Shown: positions 7,913 to 54,948 of the stretch, piece by piece | Numbering within the stretch: position 1 is the first letter of the stretch | How the letters are laid out: every line of letters starts with the position of its first letter | Assembly: GCA_001781415.1 (NCBI GenBank) | Contig: MFLT01000012.1 | Location: forward strand, 6,485 to 70,484 | Direction: 5' to 3' | From: Candidatus Kaiserbacteria bacterium RIFCSPLOWO2_01_FULL_45_25 | GTDB taxonomy: Bacteria; Patescibacteriota; Minisyncoccia; Phycocordibacterales; UBA918 | Length of the DNA stretch: 64,000 bases | Notes under the pieces: model-generated | The model's input: the letters and a program-made list of their open reading frames with translations, nothing else | What the model was told of the DNA's origin: nothing | The model's database searches: none | Position numbers and translations under genes: made by a program

Positions 7913-7968
7913 GATTACTCCTTCAGTTATTTATGGGAACGAGGCAACAACTACTAAATCATATATTG

Positions 7969-8003
7969 AAAAAAAGAAAAGCCGCGCCCTTTGGGGCGCG
8001 GCT
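7969..8003 (-). terminator. intrinsic terminator, member of repeated GAAAAGCCGCnCCCTTTGGGGnGCGGCT element
   Basis: GCCGCGCCC tttg GGGCGCGGC stem, long U-run on minus; near-identical copy at 8833..8872 with compensatory G>A/C>T change. Confidence 0.6.
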
Positions 8004-8776: not shown

Positions 8777-8832
8777 GGTCTACTCCTTGGTGTGGGTTGG
8801 AACTATTCGTCTACAACTAAACCATAAATTTA

Positions 8833-8872
8833 GAAAAAGAAAAGCCGCACCCTTTGGGGTGCGGCTTTTCTT
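8833..8872 (-). terminator. intrinsic terminator, second copy of repeated terminator element
   Basis: GCCGCACCC tttg GGGTGCGGC with flanking A/T runs. Confidence 0.6.
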
Positions 8873-8881
8873 TCGGTTGGG

Positions 8882-9778
8882 TTAGTTCACTATCCGTTCA
8901 AAACAGTATCTTCCCTCTTTATACTGCCAGCTATTGCCATTTCTGATGAGGGCAGTTTTGTCGAAGGTTGGCCCCCACATCTCTTGTTCGGTGTTTGAGT
9001 CACGAGAGAAGGTGGCGCAAAGGTTAAAGCCTTGCTCGGTTACTTCGTAACTATAAGCAGCACGGTCTTCTGGTGCTTCTGGAATTGGGAATCCATCATA
9101 AGCTTCTTCTAGACTAGCTGGAACAGTACTACTACTTACCGCTAGAGCTTCTTCAATTTTCCACTGAATTTGTTGTAGGTCAGAAATTTGTGTTTCGTCT
9201 AACTTCATTTCACGAATGGTGTTTGGTGTCTGGCTATTGAAAAATCCCATAACAATTGCCGCAGTCACCACAACAGCCATCGCTAGTCCGTAGAGTTTTG
9301 ATTCCTTCTCACGAGTGAGCCAGTAGCCACGGGCGTCTTGAAGGTAGTAATAAAAGGCCGCTCCCACAATGAGCATCAATACTGCGGCCTTGAGTACAAA
9401 TCTGGTTGTAAGTTCCCCTTCTAGGAAACTAAGGATAACGGCTACAGCATCTCCAAGAAGCACACCGCCACCTACTAGAAGTGATAGGTATAAAAGCCAC
9501 TTAGTAAGTCCAAGATAAGCACTGTTGGTTTCGGTGCGACGGTTTTTGTTGACTTGGCGAGTGAGGGCTAGGTAAGTTGGGAAAAATACCAAAAGCATAG
9601 CTATAGCCACCCGTAGACTACTAGTTGAACTTTCAATTTGCCAATAACTTTCGGCAGCATCTTCAAAACGTAGGTTGATAATACTAAATAGTAAAACTAC
9701 TAAAAATGAAATTGATACATAAAGGGTTATTAAAGCTCCGAGCTGTAGCACTGTGTGCTTGGCTGTGTTGTTTTCCAT
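8882..9778 (-). CDS. hypothetical polytopic membrane protein
   Basis: 298 aa, ~5 predicted hydrophobic helices then soluble C-terminal domain. Confidence 0.6.
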   Translation of the reverse strand: MENNTAKHTVLQLGALITLYVSISFLVVLLFSIINLRFEDAAESYWQIESSTSSLRVAIAMLLVFFPTYLALTRQVNKNRRTETNSAYLGLTKWLLYLSLLVGGGVLLGDAVAVILSFLEGELTTRFVLKAAVLMLIVGAAFYYYLQDARGYWLTREKESKLYGLAMAVVVTAAIVMGFFNSQTPNTIREMKLDETQISDLQQIQWKIEEALAVSSSTVPASLEEAYDGFPIPEAPEDRAAYSYEVTEQGFNLCATFSRDSNTEQEMWGPTFDKTALIRNGNSWQYKEGRYCFERIVN

Positions 9779-9864
9779 ATACTCATATTATACGCCTTTC
9801 GGTGGTAAAAGGTAACAAAAGATAAGTCCCCACTAATTAAATTTGAGTGATATAATGCACCTAT

Positions 9865-10134
9865 ATGAAATCAGAAGACTTAAAGAAGGCGCCGAAGCTA
9901 TTTTGTGAAAGTATTAATGTTGGATTTACACCCGAGTATTTTGTGATGGGTTTGAGTTCTGGTACTCAAGGGGCAATTTATTCTCTTACCCCGCAGCACA
10001 CTAAACGACTCCTGCAGTACCTCACCCACCAGATAGCTGAGTTTGAAAAGCAGAACGGTGAAATTAAAGCTGAGTGGAATCCCAACATCGTGAGTCCAGT
10101 GCAGCGCATGAATCCTCCAACTGAGTTGAGTTAA
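9865..10134 (+). CDS. hypothetical small protein
   Basis: 89-aa ORF, the only plus-strand gene in this block, followed by a bidirectional terminator. Confidence 0.45.
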   Translation: MKSEDLKKAPKLFCESINVGFTPEYFVMGLSSGTQGAIYSLTPQHTKRLLQYLTHQIAEFEKQNGEIKAEWNPNIVSPVQRMNPPTELS

Positions 10135-10164
10135 AAGAAAAAGCGACCAGGAAGGTCGCTTTTG
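10135..10164. terminator. bidirectional intrinsic terminator (GCGACC agga GGTCGC)
   Basis: stem-loop with A-run upstream and T-run downstream between convergent genes 9865..10134(+) and 10194..10508(-). Confidence 0.55.
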
Positions 10165-16668: not shown

Positions 16669-17097
16669 TCATTGTGTGCAAATGATAAACGGGATTTCCG
16701 GGCTTTCGTCGAAATGGAAGAAAGGAGACGTGTTCATGCCGAACAGTCCCTTTATTTCAGTCAGCATTTTCAAGTACTGACCACGGGCATAAATCAGATC
16801 GCTTTCGCTCACTGACACCGATGATGTCTGAAGCTCAAATTCAATCACATCTTCGACTTCCTTCTTTGTGTCAGTGTTGAGACAAAGAAGCGTATAGAGT
16901 GCCCCCAAGTCGTCTTGGCGCAGAAAGAAAGGCACGCTCCTGGGAGTTTCCGAATAAGCCAAGAGCCATTGCGCCAAGGCCGAGGTGACTCTTGGCAAGT
17001 CGTAGATACCCAGCTCAATGACATTTTGTTGTTTGCTGAAGTTCGTGAAAACATTTTGCAGCAACGTGAGTTTGGACGAGAAAGGTCTGTTGTCCAT
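16669..17097 (-). CDS. hypothetical protein
   Basis: 142-aa ORF. Confidence 0.5.
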   Translation of the reverse strand: MDNRPFSSKLTLLQNVFTNFSKQQNVIELGIYDLPRVTSALAQWLLAYSETPRSVPFFLRQDDLGALYTLLCLNTDTKKEVEDVIEFELQTSSVSVSESDLIYARGQYLKMLTEIKGLFGMNTSPFFHFDESPEIPFIICTQ

Positions 17098-30491: not shown

Positions 30492-31226
30492 TTATGCGTT
30501 AGCATCATCCCAGAGTCGTTTAAAAAATAAAGTTGAAGATTCTGCCAAACCGTTATCTTCGAAAATAATTCCGATTGATTCTTTTGGGCTAAGTAAAATT
30601 AAGGCTACGTGGTCATCAAACATTATGTATACAACTCGATGCAAACGCTCGTCTTCATAGACACGAATACGATGCTGTGTACCATGTACAATGTCCTTAA
30701 GGACATTCACAAAGTCACAGTCACTAGTTAGTAGTTGAGTTGGTACTTCTCTAGCAAATAATGCATGAAAAAAGTCCTCTACCATGGTGTCATCCAGGTA
30801 TTGGGACATGTGCAACACTGATCCCATTATTTGAACTGGGTATTTAGAATTTAATACCTCATCAAAAATATGTTGCACATTAGTAAGTCCAGTAAAATAT
30901 CTGAAAAGCGGTTTTAGTTTAGATTCGTGCTTTAGCGCCTGCAGTTCCGGCAGTAGTTTGTGCAACAATACTTCTTTCTCTTGCAAATTAATTAGAAAAC
31001 GACTAGGGCTTTCAGCTAACCAAACTGAACCTTGTGGCTTAACGCAATGACTTAGCAAGCCTTTCTTTTGTAATGCTTCAACGACTAATTGTGTAGTTGA
31101 GCGCGGTAAATCAGCCGCACGAGACATATCACTAACTGTACCCTCCCCTAATCTTAGAAGAGTTAAATATACCTTTATCTCATTATGCGGATACCCAAGC
31201 TGCTCTAGAGCTCTTTGAATTTGCAT
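30492..31226 (-). CDS. TrmB-family transcriptional regulator
   Basis: N-terminal wHTH MQIQRALEQLGYPHNEIKVYLTLLRLGEGTVSDMSRAADLPRSTTQLVVEALQKKGLL typical of TrmB. Confidence 0.7.
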   Translation of the reverse strand: MQIQRALEQLGYPHNEIKVYLTLLRLGEGTVSDMSRAADLPRSTTQLVVEALQKKGLLSHCVKPQGSVWLAESPSRFLINLQEKEVLLHKLLPELQALKHESKLKPLFRYFTGLTNVQHIFDEVLNSKYPVQIMGSVLHMSQYLDDTMVEDFFHALFAREVPTQLLTSDCDFVNVLKDIVHGTQHRIRVYEDERLHRVVYIMFDDHVALILLSPKESIGIIFEDNGLAESSTLFFKRLWDDANA

Positions 31227-31716: not shown

Positions 31717-32026
31717 CTCTATATCTCCTATGAACAAAGAACGGCTTAGATTCTATATTGGAGTCTAGAGTAAGTCAAACAGTAATAATGGTGTATAGGG
31801 AATGATCCTTGTGACTAAGTTAGTTAGTTTTGTTTACTACATAACGCAATCCATGCAAACGTAAATAGTACGGTTAACCGTACTATTTTGTTGGGTTGAG
31901 GGGAATGATCCTGACGGTCACCAACCTATATTATTTCGCATCCGCTCATAATCTAGCTGGTGCCGCCGTAAAACAGTGTCTATACACTGTTTTACCACCT
32001 CGCTCGCTCGTAAACTCGCATCGTTC

Positions 32027-32054
32027 CGGCGGTTCGATTCCCACGCAGGGTGCA
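32027..32054 (+). repeat. tRNA 3'-end-like fragment (GGTTCGATTCC T-loop + acceptor-like tail ...GGTGCA)
   Basis: contains GGTTCGATTCCC identical to the T-loop region of the adjacent tRNA-Ala(GGC) but T-stem cannot pair; no 5' half found. Confidence 0.5.
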
Positions 32055-32154
32055 ATTTGGAATCGGTCACTCTCGTGGATATTTTGTTTCGTTCCTCACA
32101 AAATATCTCACTCGCTCGACCCCCACTCGCGGCGGCCCAGAGGGGCCCCGCCGC

Positions 32155-32190
32155 TTCGGTTCGATTCCCCTAGATTCGCACAACAGCAAA
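32155..32190 (+). repeat. inverted partial copy of tRNA-Ala(GGC) 3' end (T-loop to trailer)
   Basis: GGTTCGATTCCCCTAGAtTCgCACAACAGC vs tRNA 3' end GGTTCGATTCCCCTAGAgTCcACAACAGC on opposite strand; arms flank hairpin GACCACTAAGCAaatGCTTAGTGGTC (32192..32217). Confidence 0.7.
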
Positions 32191-32225
32191 CGACCACTAA
32201 GCAAATGCTTAGTGGTCGGCTGTTG

Positions 32226-32298
32226 TGGACTCTAGGGGAATCGAACCCCTTACCTCTTCCATGCCATGGAAGCGCTCTACCAAATGAGCTAAGAGCCC
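32226..32298 (-). tRNA. tRNA-Ala (anticodon GGC)
   Basis: manual fold: acceptor GGGCTCT/AGAGTCC with G3:U70, D-arm GCTC/GAGC, anticodon stem CTTCC/GGAAG loop ATGGCAT, T-arm AGGGG-TTCGATT-CCCCT, discriminator A; CCA not encoded. Confidence 0.85.
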
Positions 32299-32396
32299 GT
32301 GAGTTCGACTATTATACGGATGGAATTAAAAATGAAAAGGGTATAAAAAAGCAGCCCGTGTTTGGGGCCGCTTGTTGTACCTTGTCAGTGTCCTGC

Positions 32397-32657
32397 TTAG
32401 GACTCGGCTGCGTTGGCTCTGTTGAAATCAATTTGCAGCGCAGCCAGTAATTCCGCTTGCTCTGCCGGTGTGCTTCGCTGGTATTGCTCGAGCGCCCTCA
32501 CCAAGAGATTATGCGTCAAGCCATTAAGCAGAAGCTTGTTGGCCTCCTCTGCAGCCAGTTGCCAGCGAGCTTGTTCATCCGCTTGGCTTTGTTGCAGACG
32601 GAGGTTGTATGCCTCTGCTGCCTGCCTGAACTCGTCCAGGAAGTCTTCCACGGTCAT
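32397..32657 (-). CDS. hypothetical small helical protein (GC-rich islet)
   Basis: 86-aa ORF, 4-nt overlap with upstream ORF. Confidence 0.45.
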   Translation of the reverse strand: MTVEDFLDEFRQAAEAYNLRLQQSQADEQARWQLAAEEANKLLLNGLTHNLLVRALEQYQRSTPAEQAELLAALQIDFNRANAAES

Positions 32658-32956
32658 GATTGCACCAGAGGTAACCGAGCCTGCAAGCTGTTGAGCGTCT
32701 GCTCAACATACAGCTTCGTCGACGTGTCGACCACCTCCGCCCGGTTATTGGGCTCGTTACGGAAGTGCTCAAACAGTCGAGCCAGCTCATAGCTGGGCAT
32801 TGTCCAAGGGAGGCTGACCTTAAACGCCGCCGTCCTGGCCAATTCAACAAAGTTGTCCGTCAGGCACTTGTCTTGGCCGTTGATGGCCAGGATGTAGTGT
32901 GTAGCAGCTGCCACAAACATGTTCTTGAACTCTTTTTCAGTGAGAACTGTGGGCAT
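32654..32956 (-). CDS. hypothetical protein (GC-rich islet)
   Basis: 100-aa ORF in 3-gene overlapping operon. Confidence 0.5.
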   Translation of the reverse strand: MPTVLTEKEFKNMFVAAATHYILAINGQDKCLTDNFVELARTAAFKVSLPWTMPSYELARLFEHFRNEPNNRAEVVDTSTKLYVEQTLNSLQARLPLVQS

Positions 32957-33281
32957 GATTGTCTCCTTTGGTTACGGGGTGTGATAGGGTGGGCACAGCG
33001 CAGTCACGCTCGATGACCTGGCTTTTGGTAAGCCAGCCAAACATACCTGGCGACTCCTCTGTCTTTTGGCGAATGACACATCCACCAGAAATCACAAAGT
33101 AGAACTCAATGATCTCTCCGTGCGTCAGCTTGTCGAAGTTAACGACCTTATAACGATGGTCGCCTTGTGGTTTCACCTGCACGATTGTGCCGGTGCTAAG
33201 GGTGTATCCTTCCGTCTTCTCCCCGCAAGCAGTGAAGACAATGGACACAAAGATCAGTACAAGAATGTCGTTAAGGTTCAC
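32937..33281 (-). CDS. putative lipoprotein (GC-rich islet)
   Basis: MNLNDILVLIFVSIVFTACG lipobox; 114 aa. Confidence 0.5.
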   Translation of the reverse strand: MNLNDILVLIFVSIVFTACGEKTEGYTLSTGTIVQVKPQGDHRYKVVNFDKLTHGEIIEFYFVISGGCVIRQKTEESPGMFGWLTKSQVIERDCAVPTLSHPVTKGDNHAHSSH

Positions 33282-33409
33282 TTTTCCTCCAAATGATTGA
33301 TACTAACAAATCCGGCTGAAATTAAATCACTATTGTAGTATGGTGTCAATTAAGACCCTTTCTCCTAATGCTAATTAAAGAGACTGAAATAGGAGTATTC
33401 TCTATGTAT

Positions 33410-33437
33410 CACTTGTGATACATAGAATTATGTATGA
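33410..33437. promoter_or_regulatory. palindromic candidate operator TCTATGTATCActtgTGATACATAGA
   Basis: 12-bp perfect arms; near-identical palindrome at 54118..54145. Confidence 0.4.
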
Positions 33438-33588
33438 ATAGGTGCAAAAGCTATAATTTAAACAAATTAATTAATGTTTTGGGTTTTAATGTGGTGTCAA
33501 TTTACAGTAATGATGTGTCACAAACTATTAATAAAACCAGCCCAGCAATTATCAATTGCTGGGCTGGTTTAGGAGTCGCTTCTAACTG

Positions 33589-34350
33589 TTATGACTCAAA
33601 GGTGATGCGGCGAACATCAGCGCCAGTATCGAGCATATCAGCTTGTAGGAGGGCCTTGGCTGGCTCTACAAACTGATTTGGGTCACAGACTGCTTCTGTA
33701 CCATCCAAAGCTACACAGATACTTTCAGCGTCAAAGAAAAGTGGGAGCACATGTCCAGGTGTACCATTTTCTTCGTAAATTAAGTGCCAGTTTCCGGCTG
33801 TGTACGGAGCCGGTACGCTCTTAAGGAGGAATCCACTACGCTCAAAGTCAAACTCACGCTCTGGCGGAACTTCTCCTTGTAGACATTCAATTTTAGTAAT
33901 TTGCCACAAACCATCAACGGCACTTAGAGTAGCCACTGTTTGGTATGGAGACTTTGTCTCAAATCCTCGAGCCAGTATCATAATCTGTGCTTCGGTATCT
34001 GCTTTAAAGATTTCCTTGCCACCAAGTCGTTCTGGTACAGTTAACTGACAAAAAACCGCATCCAAGTCCCCTTCGGCTTTGTTGGCTTTCTTGTCTAGAA
34101 TCATGTTCCGTACTTCGTCACTGATACGGGTTGAATTAATAAGACCAGACTGAAATGGATCAGTGGTAGTACTTTGTGATTCCGCTAGCCACTGATCAAA
34201 GAATACCATCGTTACATCAAGTGCTTCTTCCTGTGGAATTTGTGTTTCTGATACGCCGTCAGAATCTTTACTACTTTTAAATAGTGAGACAGATACAGCA
34301 ATGATAGCCAAAACTGCTCCACCGATAATTATAATTTTTTTTGTGTTCAC
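33589..34350 (-). CDS. hypothetical membrane-anchored protein
   Basis: 253 aa, single N-terminal TM. Confidence 0.55.
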   Translation of the reverse strand: MNTKKIIIIGGAVLAIIAVSVSLFKSSKDSDGVSETQIPQEEALDVTMVFFDQWLAESQSTTTDPFQSGLINSTRISDEVRNMILDKKANKAEGDLDAVFCQLTVPERLGGKEIFKADTEAQIMILARGFETKSPYQTVATLSAVDGLWQITKIECLQGEVPPEREFDFERSGFLLKSVPAPYTAGNWHLIYEENGTPGHVLPLFFDAESICVALDGTEAVCDPNQFVEPAKALLQADMLDTGADVRRITFES

Positions 34351-52663: not shown

Positions 52664-53722
52664 CTATCCACGTTTTTTCTCTCTGGCCAGATACTGATTA
52701 TACACTTCAAGCAGCACAGTAAAGAGAGTTACTATCACCGGACCGATGATAAAGCCAATCGGACCAAAAGTTGAAATACCGCCCATAACAGACGTCAACA
52801 TAATAAAAGGATGAAGGTTATTGCCACGACTCATAAGGTGTGGAGCGATTATGTTATCAACGACGATAACCGTCACTACTGTCCAAATAGCCAATCCAAT
52901 TGCCGCTGGGACAGCACCAGAAATAGCCAAGAAGAATATTCCCGGCACCATAATTGCCAAAGTACCAAGACCAGGAATCATGGCTAGTATCGCCCCGACC
53001 GCACCCCACAGGACAGCTCTATCAATACCAAATATAGTAAATCCGATCGCCGCCAACGTTCCTTGAATAAGCGAGACCAGTACTACTCCAGTAGCTACCG
53101 TTCGTACTGCCACCGCTAATCTTCCAAATATAACCTCATCATCCTTGTCAGGTAATGGACTAATCTTTACAGCAATCTTTAAGAACTCACGACCATCCCG
53201 GAAGAAATAAAACGAACCAATGAGTGAAATAAGGATAATAAACACTGTTGAGACAGTGCCAGCAAAGATGGCGCCAATGTTGCGGACCAACCATTCTGCA
53301 CCCTGACGAATCTGTTCAGTAATATTTAAATCAAAACTAGGAATGTAGTTTTGAACAACAGATTCAAAGTTTAAGACATATTTCTCAATGGTAAGCTCTT
53401 GCCCAGCACCGAGGGTTTGATAAAAGCTAACCAATTCCTTTACAAACAGTGAAGAGATGAAGATTAGTGGCAGGATAATTATCACGACAACAGCCAAAGT
53501 GGAGATAGCGGCCGCTAGAGTTTTATTTTGTTTGTAGACGCGTGACTTAATCCGCTCATACATTGGGTAACAGATGGTTACAATAACGGTAGAGAGCGCT
53601 AGAGCGCTTATAAATGGTGAGAGGATAATCCACACAAAATATCCCGCTCCAGCTAGCAAAGCAAAGAAGAACGCGTATTCAACAACTCTACTCATAGACA
53701 TACCATAACTATAGCAAGACAA
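52664..53722 (-). CDS. AI-2E family transporter (UPF0118/PerM-like membrane protein)
   Basis: 352 aa, 7-8 TM helices, conserved Gly/Pro-rich C-terminal helices typical of family. Confidence 0.75.
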   Translation of the reverse strand: MSCYSYGMSMSRVVEYAFFFALLAGAGYFVWIILSPFISALALSTVIVTICYPMYERIKSRVYKQNKTLAAAISTLAVVVIIILPLIFISSLFVKELVSFYQTLGAGQELTIEKYVLNFESVVQNYIPSFDLNITEQIRQGAEWLVRNIGAIFAGTVSTVFIILISLIGSFYFFRDGREFLKIAVKISPLPDKDDEVIFGRLAVAVRTVATGVVLVSLIQGTLAAIGFTIFGIDRAVLWGAVGAILAMIPGLGTLAIMVPGIFFLAISGAVPAAIGLAIWTVVTVIVVDNIIAPHLMSRGNNLHPFIMLTSVMGGISTFGPIGFIIGPVIVTLFTVLLEVYNQYLAREKKRG

Positions 53723-54117
53723 TACAAAAAGGACTAGGTATATACACTGGGTATACCTAGTCCTCGTGAACGTTATTGAATCAGTTGAATTTCAGCGACC
53801 CTGGCTGCAGTTTCGATTGTTTTGAAACTTTGTGCTGCAGCGGAATTTAATGCTGAAAATGTCTGGCTCAAAAAGTGTGATAGTGCCCAAAGGATTATCA
53901 CAAAACCAATTGCTTTTCGCATACAAAGTGTATTGCGACCCTGAGACCCTTTTCGAAAAGGCCATCATGTAAAATGAAAGGGGCGCGGCAATTGGTAACA
54001 ATGAACTTACCTGCTCATACTAGAGCACATTTTTTGAGTTTATGCAAATCTAGCTTTAGCTGCCTTGATGCTAATTAATTTGTTTTAATTCTTCGCTTTT
54101 CTGCAACTATTTATACA

Positions 54118-54145
54118 TAATTCTATGTATCATTAATGATACATA
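54118..54145. promoter_or_regulatory. palindromic candidate operator TTCTATGTATCAttaaTGATACATAGAA
   Basis: perfect 12-bp arms; second copy of palindrome seen at 33410..33437. Confidence 0.4.
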
Positions 54146-54399
54146 GAAAATAAGTCTATTTTGAGCCTTTTTAATTATCAAAGGAGTTCCAGTTCCAGGG
54201 ATTTGTCTGGAAGGCCGCTTCAGCTGACAGCTCCCTGCGAAGTCTAATCTGATTAAGCGCTTGTATAAGATTATTACTTATAGTGGTAGCTTCAAGTACC
54301 TGGCGGACCACATACCTTAGTTTCTCCCTGCGGGGTCGAAACTAAGGTTGTGTCTGCCTAAGCAAAACATAATCGCGCTCTGCGCTCTTTGTTTCTGCT

Positions 54400-54948
54400 T
54401 TATTTAGAGTTAATTATGCTCTCTACCACAGTTTTAATGTCCGCTTTGTTGGCTACGCCACGGAAATGTTCAACTACTTCCCCTTTACGGTTGTAAATTA
54501 CTACTTCAGGCATGGCGTAGCCTCCTACTGTCAGATAAAACGCATCGCGAGGATCAAGCACCATCACTACTCCAGTTATATTTTGTAGTGTCTGTAAGAA
54601 ACGAGCAGCTTGCTCTTTGGATTCTTTACGATTAATCGCCATGAAGACCACTTCCTCATCTGAAAATTCACTACTGAGCTCAGAAAGTGTATTTAGGTCC
54701 GCTGTAGAAAACGGAGACCATGATGCCCAAGTAGCTACCACCAAAGTCCTTCCTAAGTACTGCTCTAATGACACTGGATTACCAAGTAAGTCAGTGTAAG
54801 GCGCTTCCCCTTCTGGGTTAGAGAAAAGTGCCACCGTGTCTTCGTTAATTTTATTGTTGCTTTTACTGACGATAAAGTAAGTAGCTACTGCCCCAAGGGC
54901 CAATAGTAAAAACAGCCCGCCCAATACTTTTTTTTGATAACTACTCAT
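54400..54948 (-). CDS. membrane-anchored thioredoxin-fold (TlpA/ResA-like) protein lacking the CxxC motif
   Basis: N-terminal TM, ...LVVATWASWSPFS... at the position of WCxxC; 182 aa. Confidence 0.55.
   Translation of the reverse strand: MSSYQKKVLGGLFLLLALGAVATYFIVSKSNNKINEDTVALFSNPEGEAPYTDLLGNPVSLEQYLGRTLVVATWASWSPFSTADLNTLSELSSEFSDEEVVFMAINRKESKEQAARFLQTLQNITGVVMVLDPRDAFYLTVGGYAMPEVVIYNRKGEVVEHFRGVANKADIKTVVESIINSK

What the first reader, a model, noticed from the sequence alone, without database searches (positions are those of the whole stretch)
33410..33437. 28-bp palindrome TTCTATGTATCA-N4-TGATACATAGAA present at two distant intergenic sites
Copy 1 is TCTATGTATCActtgTGATACATAGA, in the AT-rich gap between the GC-rich islet and gene 33589..34350. 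Copy 2 is TTCTATGTATCAttaaTGATACATAGAA at 54118..54145, in the 680-nt gap between the surface-locus operon and the AI-2E transporter gene.

Perfect 12-bp arms with a 4-bp spacer, present in two places, suggest a dimeric transcription-factor operator or a site-specific recombination site. The TrmB-like regulator at 30492..31226 is one candidate binder.
Basis: seen in the sequence. Interest (0 to 1): 0.5.

Follow-up and report, generated by a model that had tools for sequence, protein, structure and literature searches.

The report
Operator of a Patescibacteria TrpR-like regulator
The two palindromes are real and most likely bind a small Trp-repressor-like protein that is encoded elsewhere in the same genome and across many Patescibacteria, which gives a first handle on gene regulation in these little-understood bacteria.

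Summary
The palindrome is real. The true coordinates are 33400-33427 and 54121-54148, and none is expected by chance. It is not a private duplication. The core TATGTATCAY-NN-RTGATACATA recurs in many Patescibacteria genomes, several copies each, almost always between genes.

In more than 13 loci the core ends 2 nt before the start codon of a ~130-aa TrpR-family (PF01371-like, 'YerC'-annotated) HTH protein. A second copy follows that gene's stop codon. Four distant homologues found by protein profile alone show the same bracketing. Their motif variants match within a genome and differ between genomes.

The window's genome is Ca. Kaiserbacteria GCA_001783435.1-like. It encodes this regulator about 375 kb from the window, flanked by three such palindromes.

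Best reading: the palindrome is the operator of this dimeric repressor. The TrmB-like candidate and the recombination-site idea do not.

Two complications remain:
- Both window copies are the centre of a conserved ~125-nt repeat with 17-bp terminal inverted repeats, found in at least 7 distinct loci.
- About a third of sites elsewhere have variable, perfectly complementary flanks (terminator-like hairpins, a T-box leader arm), so the sites also act or evolve as hairpins.

Binding, effector and regulated genes in the window are inferred, not shown.

The parts
33400..33427 (.). Palindrome copy 1 (CTCTATGTATCACTTGTGATACATAGAA; conserved 22-bp core at 33403-33424)
   Evidence: The half-sites TATGTATCAC/GTGATACATA are identical to those flanking the regulator gene of the same genome (L105).
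54121..54148 (.). Palindrome copy 2 (TTCTATGTATCATTAATGATACATAGAA; perfect 28-bp palindrome; core at 54124-54145)
   Evidence: The core is identical to sites in L008, L019, L054, L063, L066, L070 and L085.
33362..33483 (-). ~122-nt conserved repeat unit containing copy 1. Its terminal inverted repeats are degenerate on one side (CATTAATTAA ... TTAATTAGCATTAGGAG).
54061..54186 (+). ~126-nt conserved repeat unit containing copy 2 (TGCCTTGATGCTAATTAA ... TTTTTAATTATCAAAGGAG). It is inverted relative to unit 1.
32937..33281 (-). First gene downstream of copy 1 on the minus strand: a 114-aa lipoprotein-like ORF with no Pfam hit, followed by 32654..32956 and 32397..32657. It is a candidate regulated operon.
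   Evidence: By eye, a TTGACA (33349-33344) -N17- TTTAAT (33326-33321) promoter-like site lies between the palindrome and this gene. That places the palindrome about 100 bp upstream of the likely start site.
33535..33572 (.). GC-rich hairpin (CCAGCCCAGCAAT...ATTGCTGGGCTGG). It is the likely terminator of 33589..34350(-), upstream of unit 1.
   Evidence: Sequence.
53773..53922 (-). Called 49-aa ORF, followed by the AI-2E family transporter gene 52664..53722(-). This is the first coding sequence downstream of copy 2 on the minus strand and a candidate regulated operon.
54153..54181 (-). Weak sigma-70-like site TTGATA-N17-TAGACT, reading on the minus strand into copy 2. The operator would sit at about +1 to +28.
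   Evidence: 9 of 12 matches. The scan expects 1.8 such sites by chance in this region, so this is only a lead.
16862..16889 (.). Degenerate look-alike TTCTTTGTGTCAGTGTTGAGACAAAGAA inside ORF 16669..17097(-). It is judged not to be a member.
   Evidence: In the orthologous L019 sequence only the coding-constrained centre is kept and the outer arms are lost.

Best explanation
The palindrome is the DNA operator of a homodimeric TrpR-family helix-turn-helix regulator. The regulator is about 130 aa, with an HTH at roughly residues 25-75, a recognition helix S-P-N-T-F-x-Q-I-x-x-W, and a conserved C-terminal extension. It is widespread in Patescibacteria. In this genome it is protein P0004, encoded about 375 kb from the window on the same 964,844-bp scaffold.

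Inferred mechanism: each monomer reads one half-site TATGTATCA(T/C), and the two central bases are free.

At its own gene the right half-site supplies a -10-like hexamer (TATGAT or TATAAT). This hexamer ends 6 nt before the ATG, and there is no Shine-Dalgarno sequence. Binding would therefore shut off a leaderless promoter (autorepression). A second copy just after the stop codon doubles as the stem of an A-tract/T-tract terminator.

The two window sites are high-affinity copies of this operator. They are carried in a conserved ~125-nt repeat that sits in 5' or intergenic regions. The regulator is inferred to bind there and to modulate transcription of the flanking units, either by blocking a local promoter or as a roadblock. 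The flanking units are the lipoprotein operon at 33281 and the small ORF plus AI-2E transporter operon at 53922.

Shown: the sequence, the recurrence, the fixed position at the regulator gene, the co-variation of motif and protein, and the presence of the regulator in the same genome.

Inferred: binding itself, the sign of regulation, the effector (by family analogy an amino acid or related small molecule), and which window genes respond.
For: 1. Recurrence. An exact scan of 185,579 species genomes gives 91 loci. By record title, 44 of the 80 listed loci are labelled Patescibacteria lineages or belong to one unclassified MAG (SAT3048) that also carries the regulator, with 2-7 exact copies in those MAGs that have several. 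83 of 96 sites are intergenic.

2. Link to the regulator gene. A profile search finds the regulator gene next to a site in 13 loci. In 9 of the 11 loci tabulated (L007, L016, L027, L043, L048, L065, L070, L073, L083) the 22-bp core ends 2 nt before the ATG. Ten of those 11 have another palindrome at or just after the end of the gene; the eleventh locus (L007) ends there. L097 and L105 show the same arrangement.

3. Same genome. The window's Redoxin gene and regulator P0004 are on the same ENA scaffold (ANAN16-1_SAMN03842440 scaffold_1) and in the same NCBI assembly GCA_001783435.1. L105 shows three palindromes around that gene, with half-sites identical to window copy 1.

4. Independent test. 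Four distant homologues were found by profile search only (P0022, P0024, P0042, P0070). All have palindromes upstream of the start (1 to about 42 nt away) and after the stop (0 to about 66 nt away). The variant is shared by the 5' and 3' sites within a genome and differs between genomes: CTTGGTATCAT, ACCTATCAT and TTTACTAGTAAA. The last goes with a TrpR-like recognition helix GQATVES.

5. Family assignment.
- PF01371 scores 35.7 bits (cut-off 27) for one member and 19-23 bits for others.
- PF01371 is precomputed for 12 of 19 homologues, and source names are 'YerC' or 'Trp operon repressor'.
- hhalign to E. coli TrpR gives E = 1.4e-3 over helices C-E.
- The best-probability fold hits are TrpR-like structures 3frw and 3kor.

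6. Known family behaviour. TrpR and HisR proteins bind ~20-bp palindromes of the form TGTA...TACA and often autoregulate (PMC9413887). This motif is TGTA-N10-TACA.
Against: - No binding or expression data exist.
- In the window, copy 1 lies about 100 bp upstream of the only convincing promoter-like site for the downstream gene. Copy 2 lies about 200 nt from the nearest ORF. These are not textbook repressor positions.
- 30 of 96 sites have 6-17 bp of variable, perfectly complementary flanks.
- In four genomes the palindrome is an arm of a transcribed T-box-like thrS leader.
- Several variant sites carry symmetric (compensated) changes: 10 pairs overall, about 7 of them in Patescibacteria sites.
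- These last three points indicate hairpin-level selection or hairpin-driven mutation, which a simple operator model does not require.
- Most Pfam scores are below the gathering threshold, and the fold search is statistically weak (no hit with E <= 0.001).
- A few hits in unrelated phyla (Nocardia, Tenacibaculum) have no regulator nearby.
Confidence: 0.7

Rival explanations
1. The palindrome works mainly as a transcribed hairpin: an intrinsic, often bidirectional terminator, an RNA-stabilising stem-loop, or a structural arm of leaders. No sequence-specific DNA-binding protein is involved.
For: - The consensus scan flags both window copies and L019 as terminator-like.
- 30 of 96 sites have extended stems of variable sequence. 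Many are A-tract/T-tract pairs, and 11 of the 30 have a T-rich tail.
- The 3' sites of the regulator gene are followed by T runs.
- Compensated changes occur in L048, L078, L083 and L105.
- The palindrome forms a hairpin arm in T-box-like leaders.
Against: - A purely structural stem would not keep 20 identical bases across Saccharibacteria-, Paceibacteria- and Minisyncoccia-labelled genomes while its lower stem and loop vary freely.
- The stem is AT-rich (3 G-C pairs), and the window copies lack a real U-tract (tails ATTATGTATG and TTATGTATAA).
- It does not explain the fixed 2-nt spacing to the regulator's ATG or the motif-protein co-variation.
- 5 of the 30 extended sites lie between divergent genes, where no terminator is needed.
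- This reading is more likely a second, overlapping role than an alternative.
Confidence: 0.15
2. The window copies are simply two insertions of a small non-autonomous mobile element (MITE-like, ~125 nt, with terminal inverted repeats). The central palindrome would be part of the element's own transposition machinery rather than a host regulatory site.
For: - The element has defined ends, with about 17 bp of terminal inverted repeat GGCCYTGATGCTAATTAA/TTAATTAGCATCGRGGCC.
- Copies occur in at least 7 distinct loci with unrelated flanks, in the window, L019/L206, L169 with L174 and L197, L177, L181 and L219.
- In L019 the unit lies in a 2-kb segment that is absent from the syntenic place in the window.
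Against: - No target-site duplication is visible, and no transposase lies nearby.
- At an orthologous locus the unit is about 92% identical (hand count on the alignment). The surrounding DNA is 74% identical and the adjacent protein 59%. That indicates constraint or homogenisation rather than neutral decay.
- The central palindrome exists without this unit in many other lineages and at the regulator gene of the same genome.
- Most copies sit in 5' regions.
- This reading can explain how the operator spread, but not what the palindrome is.
Confidence: 0.1
3. The palindrome is the operator of the local TrmB-like regulator (30492..31226), or a site-specific recombination site (Xer/dif-like or integrase att).
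For: - PF01978 (TrmB) is confirmed for 30492..31226, about 2 kb from copy 1.
- Copy 1 contains TATCAC-TT-GTGATA, which resembles the Thermococcales TrmBL1 motif TATCAC-N5-GTGATA. That motif is recalled from memory, not tested.
- An inverted partial tRNA-Ala copy lies nearby.
Against: - No copy of the site lies upstream of the TrmB-like gene.
- No TrmB homologue occurs in any of the 91 genome loci carrying the motif.
- The spacing differs from the TrmBL1 motif, and copy 2 lacks it.
- No recombinase domain is found among the flanking genes.
- There are multiple copies per genome, at positions tied to a different gene family.
Confidence: 0.03

Closest known systems
E. coli TrpR and its operators (trpO, aroH, trpR)
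   Same: - A small all-helical HTH protein of Pfam PF01371.
- A palindromic operator with outer TGTA...TACA and a free centre.
- An operator overlapping the promoter of the regulator's own gene (autoregulation).
- The aligned LTxxExxALGxRxxI...G core (motif from PMC9413887).
   Different: - Operator spacing is TGTA-N10-TACA (TGTATCAT-NN-ATGATACA) rather than TGTA-N12-TACA with a CTAG core.
- The recognition helix is SPNTFxQI rather than IATITRGS.
- There is a ~50-aa conserved C-terminal extension that TrpR lacks.
- A second operator follows the stop codon.
- The hosts are bacteria that, from general knowledge, lack tryptophan biosynthesis, so the effector and regulon must differ.
HisR (YerC/YecD family TrpR-related histidine repressor of Firmicutes; PMC9413887)
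   Same: - Same Pfam family and the same source annotation ('YerC').
- About half of hisR genes carry their own site.
- It coexists evolutionarily with T-box control of amino-acid genes.
   Different: - The HisR motif in Firmicutes is cacTTTAnnnnnnTAAAgtg.
- NCBIfam yecD_yerC scores only 14-18 bits against a cut-off of 42, so this is not a YerC equivalog.
- The neighbouring genes are aminoacyl-tRNA synthetases, tRNA-modification and housekeeping genes, not his genes.
Bacterial MITE-like repeats that carry regulatory sites (for example Neisseria Correia elements or enterobacterial ERIC/REP; recalled from general knowledge)
   Same: - A short (~125 nt) interspersed intergenic repeat with terminal inverted repeats.
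- A central element that can influence neighbouring transcription.
   Different: - No target-site duplication and no partner transposase were seen.
- Only about 7 loci are known so far.
- The unit is more conserved than its flanks at an orthologous locus.

Membership tests
TrpR-family repressor/operator pair (Pfam PF01371) | The cognate protein carries the Trp_repressor HTH domain. | tested here: met
   The L033 protein scores 35.7 bits against a cut-off of 27. Three others score 19-23 bits, below the cut-off. PF01371 is precomputed for 12 of 19 homologues. hhalign to E. coli TrpR gives E = 1.4e-3 and 31% identity over 45 columns. Fold hits to 3frw and 3kor have probability 0.6-0.9 but poor E-values. 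The match is real but distant.
TrpR-family repressor/operator pair (Pfam PF01371) | The operator is a ~20-bp palindrome with conserved outer TGTA/TACA and a variable centre. | tested here: met
   The core is TATGTATCAT-NN-ATGATACATA with a variable central dinucleotide. The published family motifs are given. The spacing is 2 bp shorter than in TrpR and proteobacterial HisR.
TrpR-family repressor/operator pair (Pfam PF01371) | An operator sits at the regulator's own promoter (autoregulation). | tested here: met
   The position was tested, not the function. The core ends 2 nt before the ATG in 9 of the 11 loci, and also in L097 and L105. A TATGAT or TATAAT hexamer ends 6 nt before the ATG in those loci. 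The four distant homologues also have a palindrome upstream of the start.
TrpR-family repressor/operator pair (Pfam PF01371) | The protein binds the site, and binding depends on a small-molecule corepressor. | not testable with these tools
   This needs EMSA or DAP-seq with purified P0004, with and without amino acids.
YerC/YecD (HisR) equivalog, NCBIfam TIGR02531 | The score reaches the curated cut-off of the family model. | tested here: not met
   Scores are 14-18 bits against a cut-off of 42.2. This is a separate subfamily with a C-terminal extension.
Intrinsic (Rho-independent) terminator | A G+C-rich stem-loop is followed directly by a U-tract. | tested here: inconclusive
   The scan flags both window copies (11-12 pairs, only 3 G-C pairs; tails ATTATGTATG and TTATGTATAA). 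Clearer terminator shape is seen at the 3' sites of the regulator gene and in L019.
MITE (miniature inverted-repeat transposable element) | Short length, terminal inverted repeats, and several copies in unrelated flanks. | tested here: met
   The unit is 122-129 nt with about 17-bp terminal inverted repeats and occurs in at least 7 distinct loci.
MITE (miniature inverted-repeat transposable element) | Target-site duplications, and a related autonomous element or transposase. | tested here: not met
   No direct repeats were seen at the unit borders in the alignment. No transposase domain was found in the neighbouring genes examined. A whole-genome search for a partner element was not possible.
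TrmB/TrmBL1 operator | The site is associated with a TrmB-family gene and follows the TATCAC-N5-GTGATA architecture (motif recalled from memory). | tested here: not met
   No site lies at the TrmB-like gene. No TrmB homologue occurs in the 91 motif-bearing loci. The spacing is N2 in copy 1 and the motif is absent in copy 2.
Site-specific recombination site (dif/att) | An adjacent or cognate recombinase, and one or few copies per replicon. | tested here: not met
   The flanking genes have no recombinase domain. At least 5 copies occur in this genome (the window plus L105), and several more in related genomes.

The most novel reading that the evidence does not exclude
A single TrpR-like protein is a Patescibacteria-wide global regulator whose operator is deliberately 'dual-coded'. 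The same 22 bp serves as a protein-binding site in DNA and as a hairpin in RNA. The RNA hairpin appears as a terminator stem, as a 5' hairpin abutting the start codon, and in the Stem II position of T-box-like thrS leaders. This would couple protein-mediated control with RNA-level control of aminoacyl-tRNA synthetase and other translation genes. In the Kaiserbacteria lineage a 125-nt MITE-like vehicle would spread the operator to new genes. In the extreme version, the protein recognises the hairpin (RNA or extruded DNA) itself.
Probability: 0.2. Interest if true: 0.8.

Novelty: new member of a known kind. Interest (0 to 1): 0.55.

Why it matters
In the paper library I searched, the only regulon study of Patescibacteria (CPR) that turned up was the LexA work. 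These bacteria are largely uncultivated, have about 1-Mb genomes and, from general knowledge, few regulators.

This result offers three things:
- A regulator-operator pair that can be recognised purely from sequence.
- An internal control, because the motif co-varies with the protein.
- A candidate regulon that includes aminoacyl-tRNA synthetase leaders.

Each is directly testable by DAP-seq or EMSA with one small protein and by existing metatranscriptomes. The case also shows how palindromic operators in very compact genomes can be nested in terminators and riboswitch arms, and how they can be spread by a small repeat.

Tried and rejected
- **Rfam.** The whole window at gathering threshold gives only two tRNA-Ala genes. 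An E-value scan of 53700-54450 gives nothing meaningful.
- **Simple segmental duplication.** A plus/plus alignment of the two gaps shows no extended similarity. Similarity appears only when one copy is reverse-complemented, and it stops after about 125 nt.
- **Third site at 16862-16889.** It looked statistically striking. It lies in a conserved ORF and its arms are not conserved in L019, so it was dropped.
- **TrmB-like binder.** Rejected.
- **Regulator inside the window.** None was found by tblastn or by HMM on the six-frame translation.
- **Phage or viral origin.** Only 5 exact hits in 2.9 million viral contigs.
- **The ~125-nt unit as an RNA.** The terminal repeats can pair, but covariation is nil (term +1.24).
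- **A promoter inside the unit.** No conserved -35/-10 was found. Only copy 2 has a weak TTGATA-N17-TAGACT site.
- **The ORF-less 54150-54400 as a decayed copy of the L019 downstream gene.** No tblastn similarity.
- **LexA/SOS box of Patescibacteria.** The paper could not be read in the library, and no lexA or recA association was seen among the neighbours.
- **Literature search for the motif string.** It returned only primers.
- **Non-Patescibacteria hits.** Those with long stems (Nocardia L057, Tenacibaculum L021) are treated as chance. Hairpin terminators need only 9 matching bases, not 18.
- **Clostridium hits.** They form a separate operator family next to a DegV-like gene (identified by eye from the sequence).

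Full report
**Observation.** The palindrome exists twice as quoted, but the coordinates are shifted. Copy 1 is CTCTATGTATCACTTGTGATACATAGAA at 33400-33427. Copy 2 is TTCTATGTATCATTAATGATACATAGAA at 54121-54148, a perfect 28-bp palindrome. Shuffled versions of the window never produce a match, even with three mismatches allowed. Both copies are intergenic. A third look-alike at 16862-16889 lies inside a conserved ORF. Its arms are not kept in the closest relative, so I set it aside.

**The repeat is larger and inverted.** Aligning the two gaps in the same orientation shows nothing. Reverse-complementing one copy shows 84-95% identity over about 90 nt. A metagenome scan with a flank-plus-arm 17-mer retrieved further copies. 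Aligned together, eight copies define a unit of 122-129 nt. The unit has terminal inverted repeats (GGCCYTGATGCTAATTAA ... TTAATTAGCATCGRGGCC) and the palindrome at its centre. The flanks are unrelated, and the copies represent at least 7 distinct loci. In window coordinates the units are 33362-33483 (-) and 54061-54186 (+).

The units sit mostly in 5' or divergent intergenic regions. Judged from their N-terminal sequences, the neighbours include an AspRS-like gene, PilB-like ATPases and a PolA-like gene. At an orthologous locus (L169 versus L197) the unit is about 92% identical, by my count on the alignment. The surrounding DNA is 74% identical and the adjacent protein 59%. The terminal repeats can pair, but there is no covariation. 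No target-site duplication or transposase was seen.

**The core is a widespread motif.** An exact scan of one genome per species (185,579 species) with TATGTATCANNNNTGATACATA returned 91 loci. By record title, 44 of the 80 listed loci carry labels of Patescibacteria lineages (Saccharibacteria, Parcubacteria/Paceibacteria, Nomurabacteria, Minisyncoccia) or belong to one unclassified MAG (SAT3048) that also carries the regulator. The MAGs with several copies have 2-7 exact ones. The real core is TATGTATCAT-NN-ATGATACATA with a free centre. 83 of 96 sites are intergenic. Only 5 hits occur in 2.9 million viral contigs.

**The associated protein.** Listing the genes whose 5' end faces a site revealed one recurring ~130-aa protein. 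A profile search finds it next to a site in 13 loci. Of the 11 loci tabulated, 9 show the layout ...TAT(G/A)AT-ACATA(G/A)-ATG. The palindrome ends 2 nt before the start codon, a -10-like hexamer ends 6 nt before the ATG, and there is no Shine-Dalgarno sequence. This suggests a leaderless, self-repressed promoter. Ten of the 11 have another palindrome at or just after the end of the gene; the eleventh locus ends there. L097 shows the same layout. In most cases the downstream palindrome is extended by an A-rich/T-rich stem and followed by T residues, the shape of a terminator.

The protein is a distant member of the Trp-repressor family:
- PF01371 scores 35.7 bits (cut-off 27) for one member and 19-23 bits for others.
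- PF01371 is precomputed for 12 of 19 close homologues, and sources name it 'YerC' or 'Trp operon repressor'.
- hhalign to E. coli TrpR gives E = 1.4e-3 across helices C-E.
- The AlphaFold model (pLDDT 77) gives its most probable, though statistically weak, fold matches to TrpR-like structures 3frw and 3kor. A profile search of PDB sequences ranks 3kor first.

It is not a YerC/HisR equivalog, scoring 14-18 bits against a cut-off of 42. It carries a conserved ~50-aa C-terminal extension. The family comprises 254 clusters at 50% identity.

Published TrpR and HisR operators are 20-bp palindromes, TGTAcTnGTnnACnAgTACA and TGTAnTArnnnnyTnTTACA, and these regulators often autoregulate (PMC9413887). 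This motif is TGTATCAT-NN-ATGATACA, with the same outer TGTA/TACA but spacing 2 bp shorter.

**The regulator is in the window's genome.** The window's Redoxin protein maps to ENA scaffold ANAN16-1_SAMN03842440 scaffold_1 (964,844 bp) near 574 kb, and to NCBI assembly GCA_001783435.1. Regulator P0004 is named by NCBI as a hypothetical protein of Candidatus Kaiserbacteria RIFCSPLOWO2_02_FULL_45_11. It maps to the same scaffold near 949.4 kb and to the same assembly.

Its locus (L105) has three palindromes:
- A 50-bp perfect palindrome after the upstream AA_kinase-family gene.
- A variant, TATGTATTATGTATAATACATA, abutting the ATG.
- A third just after the stop codon.

Their half-sites TATGTATCAC/GTGATACATA are identical to window copy 1. 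No homologue of the regulator lies inside the window.

**Independent test.** Four distant family members were found only by protein profile. I fetched their loci without reference to the DNA motif. All four have palindromes upstream of the start (1 to about 42 nt away) and after the stop (0 to about 66 nt away). L225 has the canonical motif. L226 has CTTGGTATCATTAATGATACCAAG at both ends. L227 has ACCTATCAT-NN-ATGATAGGT at two of its three sites and the variant ATCTATCGT-NN-ATGATAGAT at the third. L228 has a recognition helix (GQATVES) that resembles TrpR rather than SPNTF, and its 5' palindrome is built on TTTACTAGTAAA, the CTAG-type core of classical TrpR operators; its 3' site shares the ACTAGT centre.

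So the motif is constant within a genome and changes with the protein between genomes. That pattern is expected of a cognate protein-DNA pair. A generic hairpin would not show it.

**Complications.**
- 30 of 96 sites have 6-17 bp of perfectly complementary but non-conserved flanks. Many of these are A-tract/T-tract pairs, as in bidirectional terminators. Five lie between divergent genes.
- In four divergent genomes the palindrome is a hairpin arm of a T-box-like thrS leader downstream of a TTGACA-N17-TAGGAT promoter.
- Several variant sites show symmetric changes.

I read these as secondary consequences of dyad symmetry in very compact genomes. A transcribed palindromic operator is automatically an RNA stem, so it can be nested in terminators or leader arms. 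Perfect palindromes are also prone to arm-to-arm template-switch correction, which would extend and symmetrise them. That last point is inference from general knowledge of quasipalindrome mutagenesis and was not tested. A primary RNA-hairpin function cannot be excluded and is kept as the main rival.

**Function in the window.** This is the weakest step. Copy 1 lies about 50 bp upstream of the -35 of a TTGACA-N17-TTTAAT site (found by eye) that precedes the lipoprotein-like operon at 33281. That is roughly -100 from the likely start site. Copy 2 is preceded on the minus strand by a weak TTGATA-N17-TAGACT site. This would place the operator at +1 to +28 of a transcript heading for the 49-aa ORF and the AI-2E transporter gene. 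The scan expects 1.8 such sites by chance in that region. On its other side lies a 213-nt ORF-less, strongly structured stretch.

Elsewhere, genes with a site close to their 5' end include the following. The ThrRS domain check was run on L030; the other three thrS assignments, like AspRS, rest on N-terminal sequence.
- Aminoacyl-tRNA synthetases: ThrRS (four genomes), a class IIb LysRS-type enzyme, ArgRS and AspRS.
- tRNA modification: MiaA and TruB.
- Other housekeeping genes: Map, SecA, DnaJ, Tag and RmuC.

This is suggestive of a translation or amino-acid-linked regulon, but no enrichment was tested against background.

**Verdict.** The operator interpretation is supported. The TrmB-like candidate and the recombination site are not. 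The element is best filed as the operator of a new, Patescibacteria-specific subfamily of TrpR-type regulators. In this lineage the operator is embedded in a conserved 125-nt repeat. I found no description of this pair in the searchable literature.

Noticed in passing
L030:3735-3935, L053:4030-4235, L071:7360-7560, L074:6395-6605 (reverse strand): A divergent T-box-like leader lies upstream of thrS in four Patescibacteria lineages. It has a TTGACA-N17-TAGGAT promoter, a short hairpin with the Thr codon ACC in its loop, the 22-nt palindrome as the second hairpin, a variable third hairpin, then GGTGGAACCGCG and a terminator. It scores only 21.7 bits on Rfam T-box (gathering score 93), so standard annotation misses it.
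   Followed up: partly
window 54187-54399: A 213-nt stretch with no credible ORF lies between copy 2 and the stop of the Redoxin gene. It folds far better than shuffles on both strands (z = -5.0 and -4.2), including a 23-bp imperfect hairpin at about 54302-54358. It has no Rfam match. It could be an sRNA, a long 3' UTR or a decayed gene.
   Followed up: partly
window 32158-32177 and 32225-32298: A 20-nt piece, GGTTCGATTCCCCTAGATTC, on the plus strand is 95% complementary to the 3' part of tRNA-Ala(GGC) on the minus strand 50 nt away. It lies inside the GC-rich islet (31900-32450). This looks like an inverted partial tRNA duplication, possibly a scar of an integration event.
   Followed up: no
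L019:5376-7335 versus window 9777-9865: The closest relative carries a 2-kb insertion between the orthologues of window genes 9156-9776(-) and 9866-10135(+). The insertion holds an Exo_endo_phos-family gene, the 125-nt unit (there a 44-bp perfect palindrome) and a 270-aa ORF with no Pfam hit.
   Followed up: partly
L015, L031, L045, L064, L068, L072, L080, L090 (Clostridium spp.): A related-looking palindrome, TATGTATCA-ATAG-TGATACATA, lies next to a second TATCACTAT repeat, 51 nt upstream of a conserved DegV-like gene (identified by eye). This appears to be a separate operator family unrelated to the Patescibacteria regulator.
   Followed up: no
L011, L027, L029, L041, L062 (MAG labelled Patiriisocius sp., JBLHQB01): A MAG labelled as a flavobacterium carries 8 exact copies of the palindrome and a copy of the regulator gene (L027:4275-4673). 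Either the contigs are mis-binned Patescibacteria or the system was transferred horizontally.
   Followed up: no
window 7936-8003 and 8799-8866: A 68-nt direct repeat (81% identity) ends in a GC-rich terminator hairpin (AAAAGCCGCGCCCTTTGGGGCGCGGCT). The repeated 3' ends suggest tandem paralogous genes.
   Followed up: no
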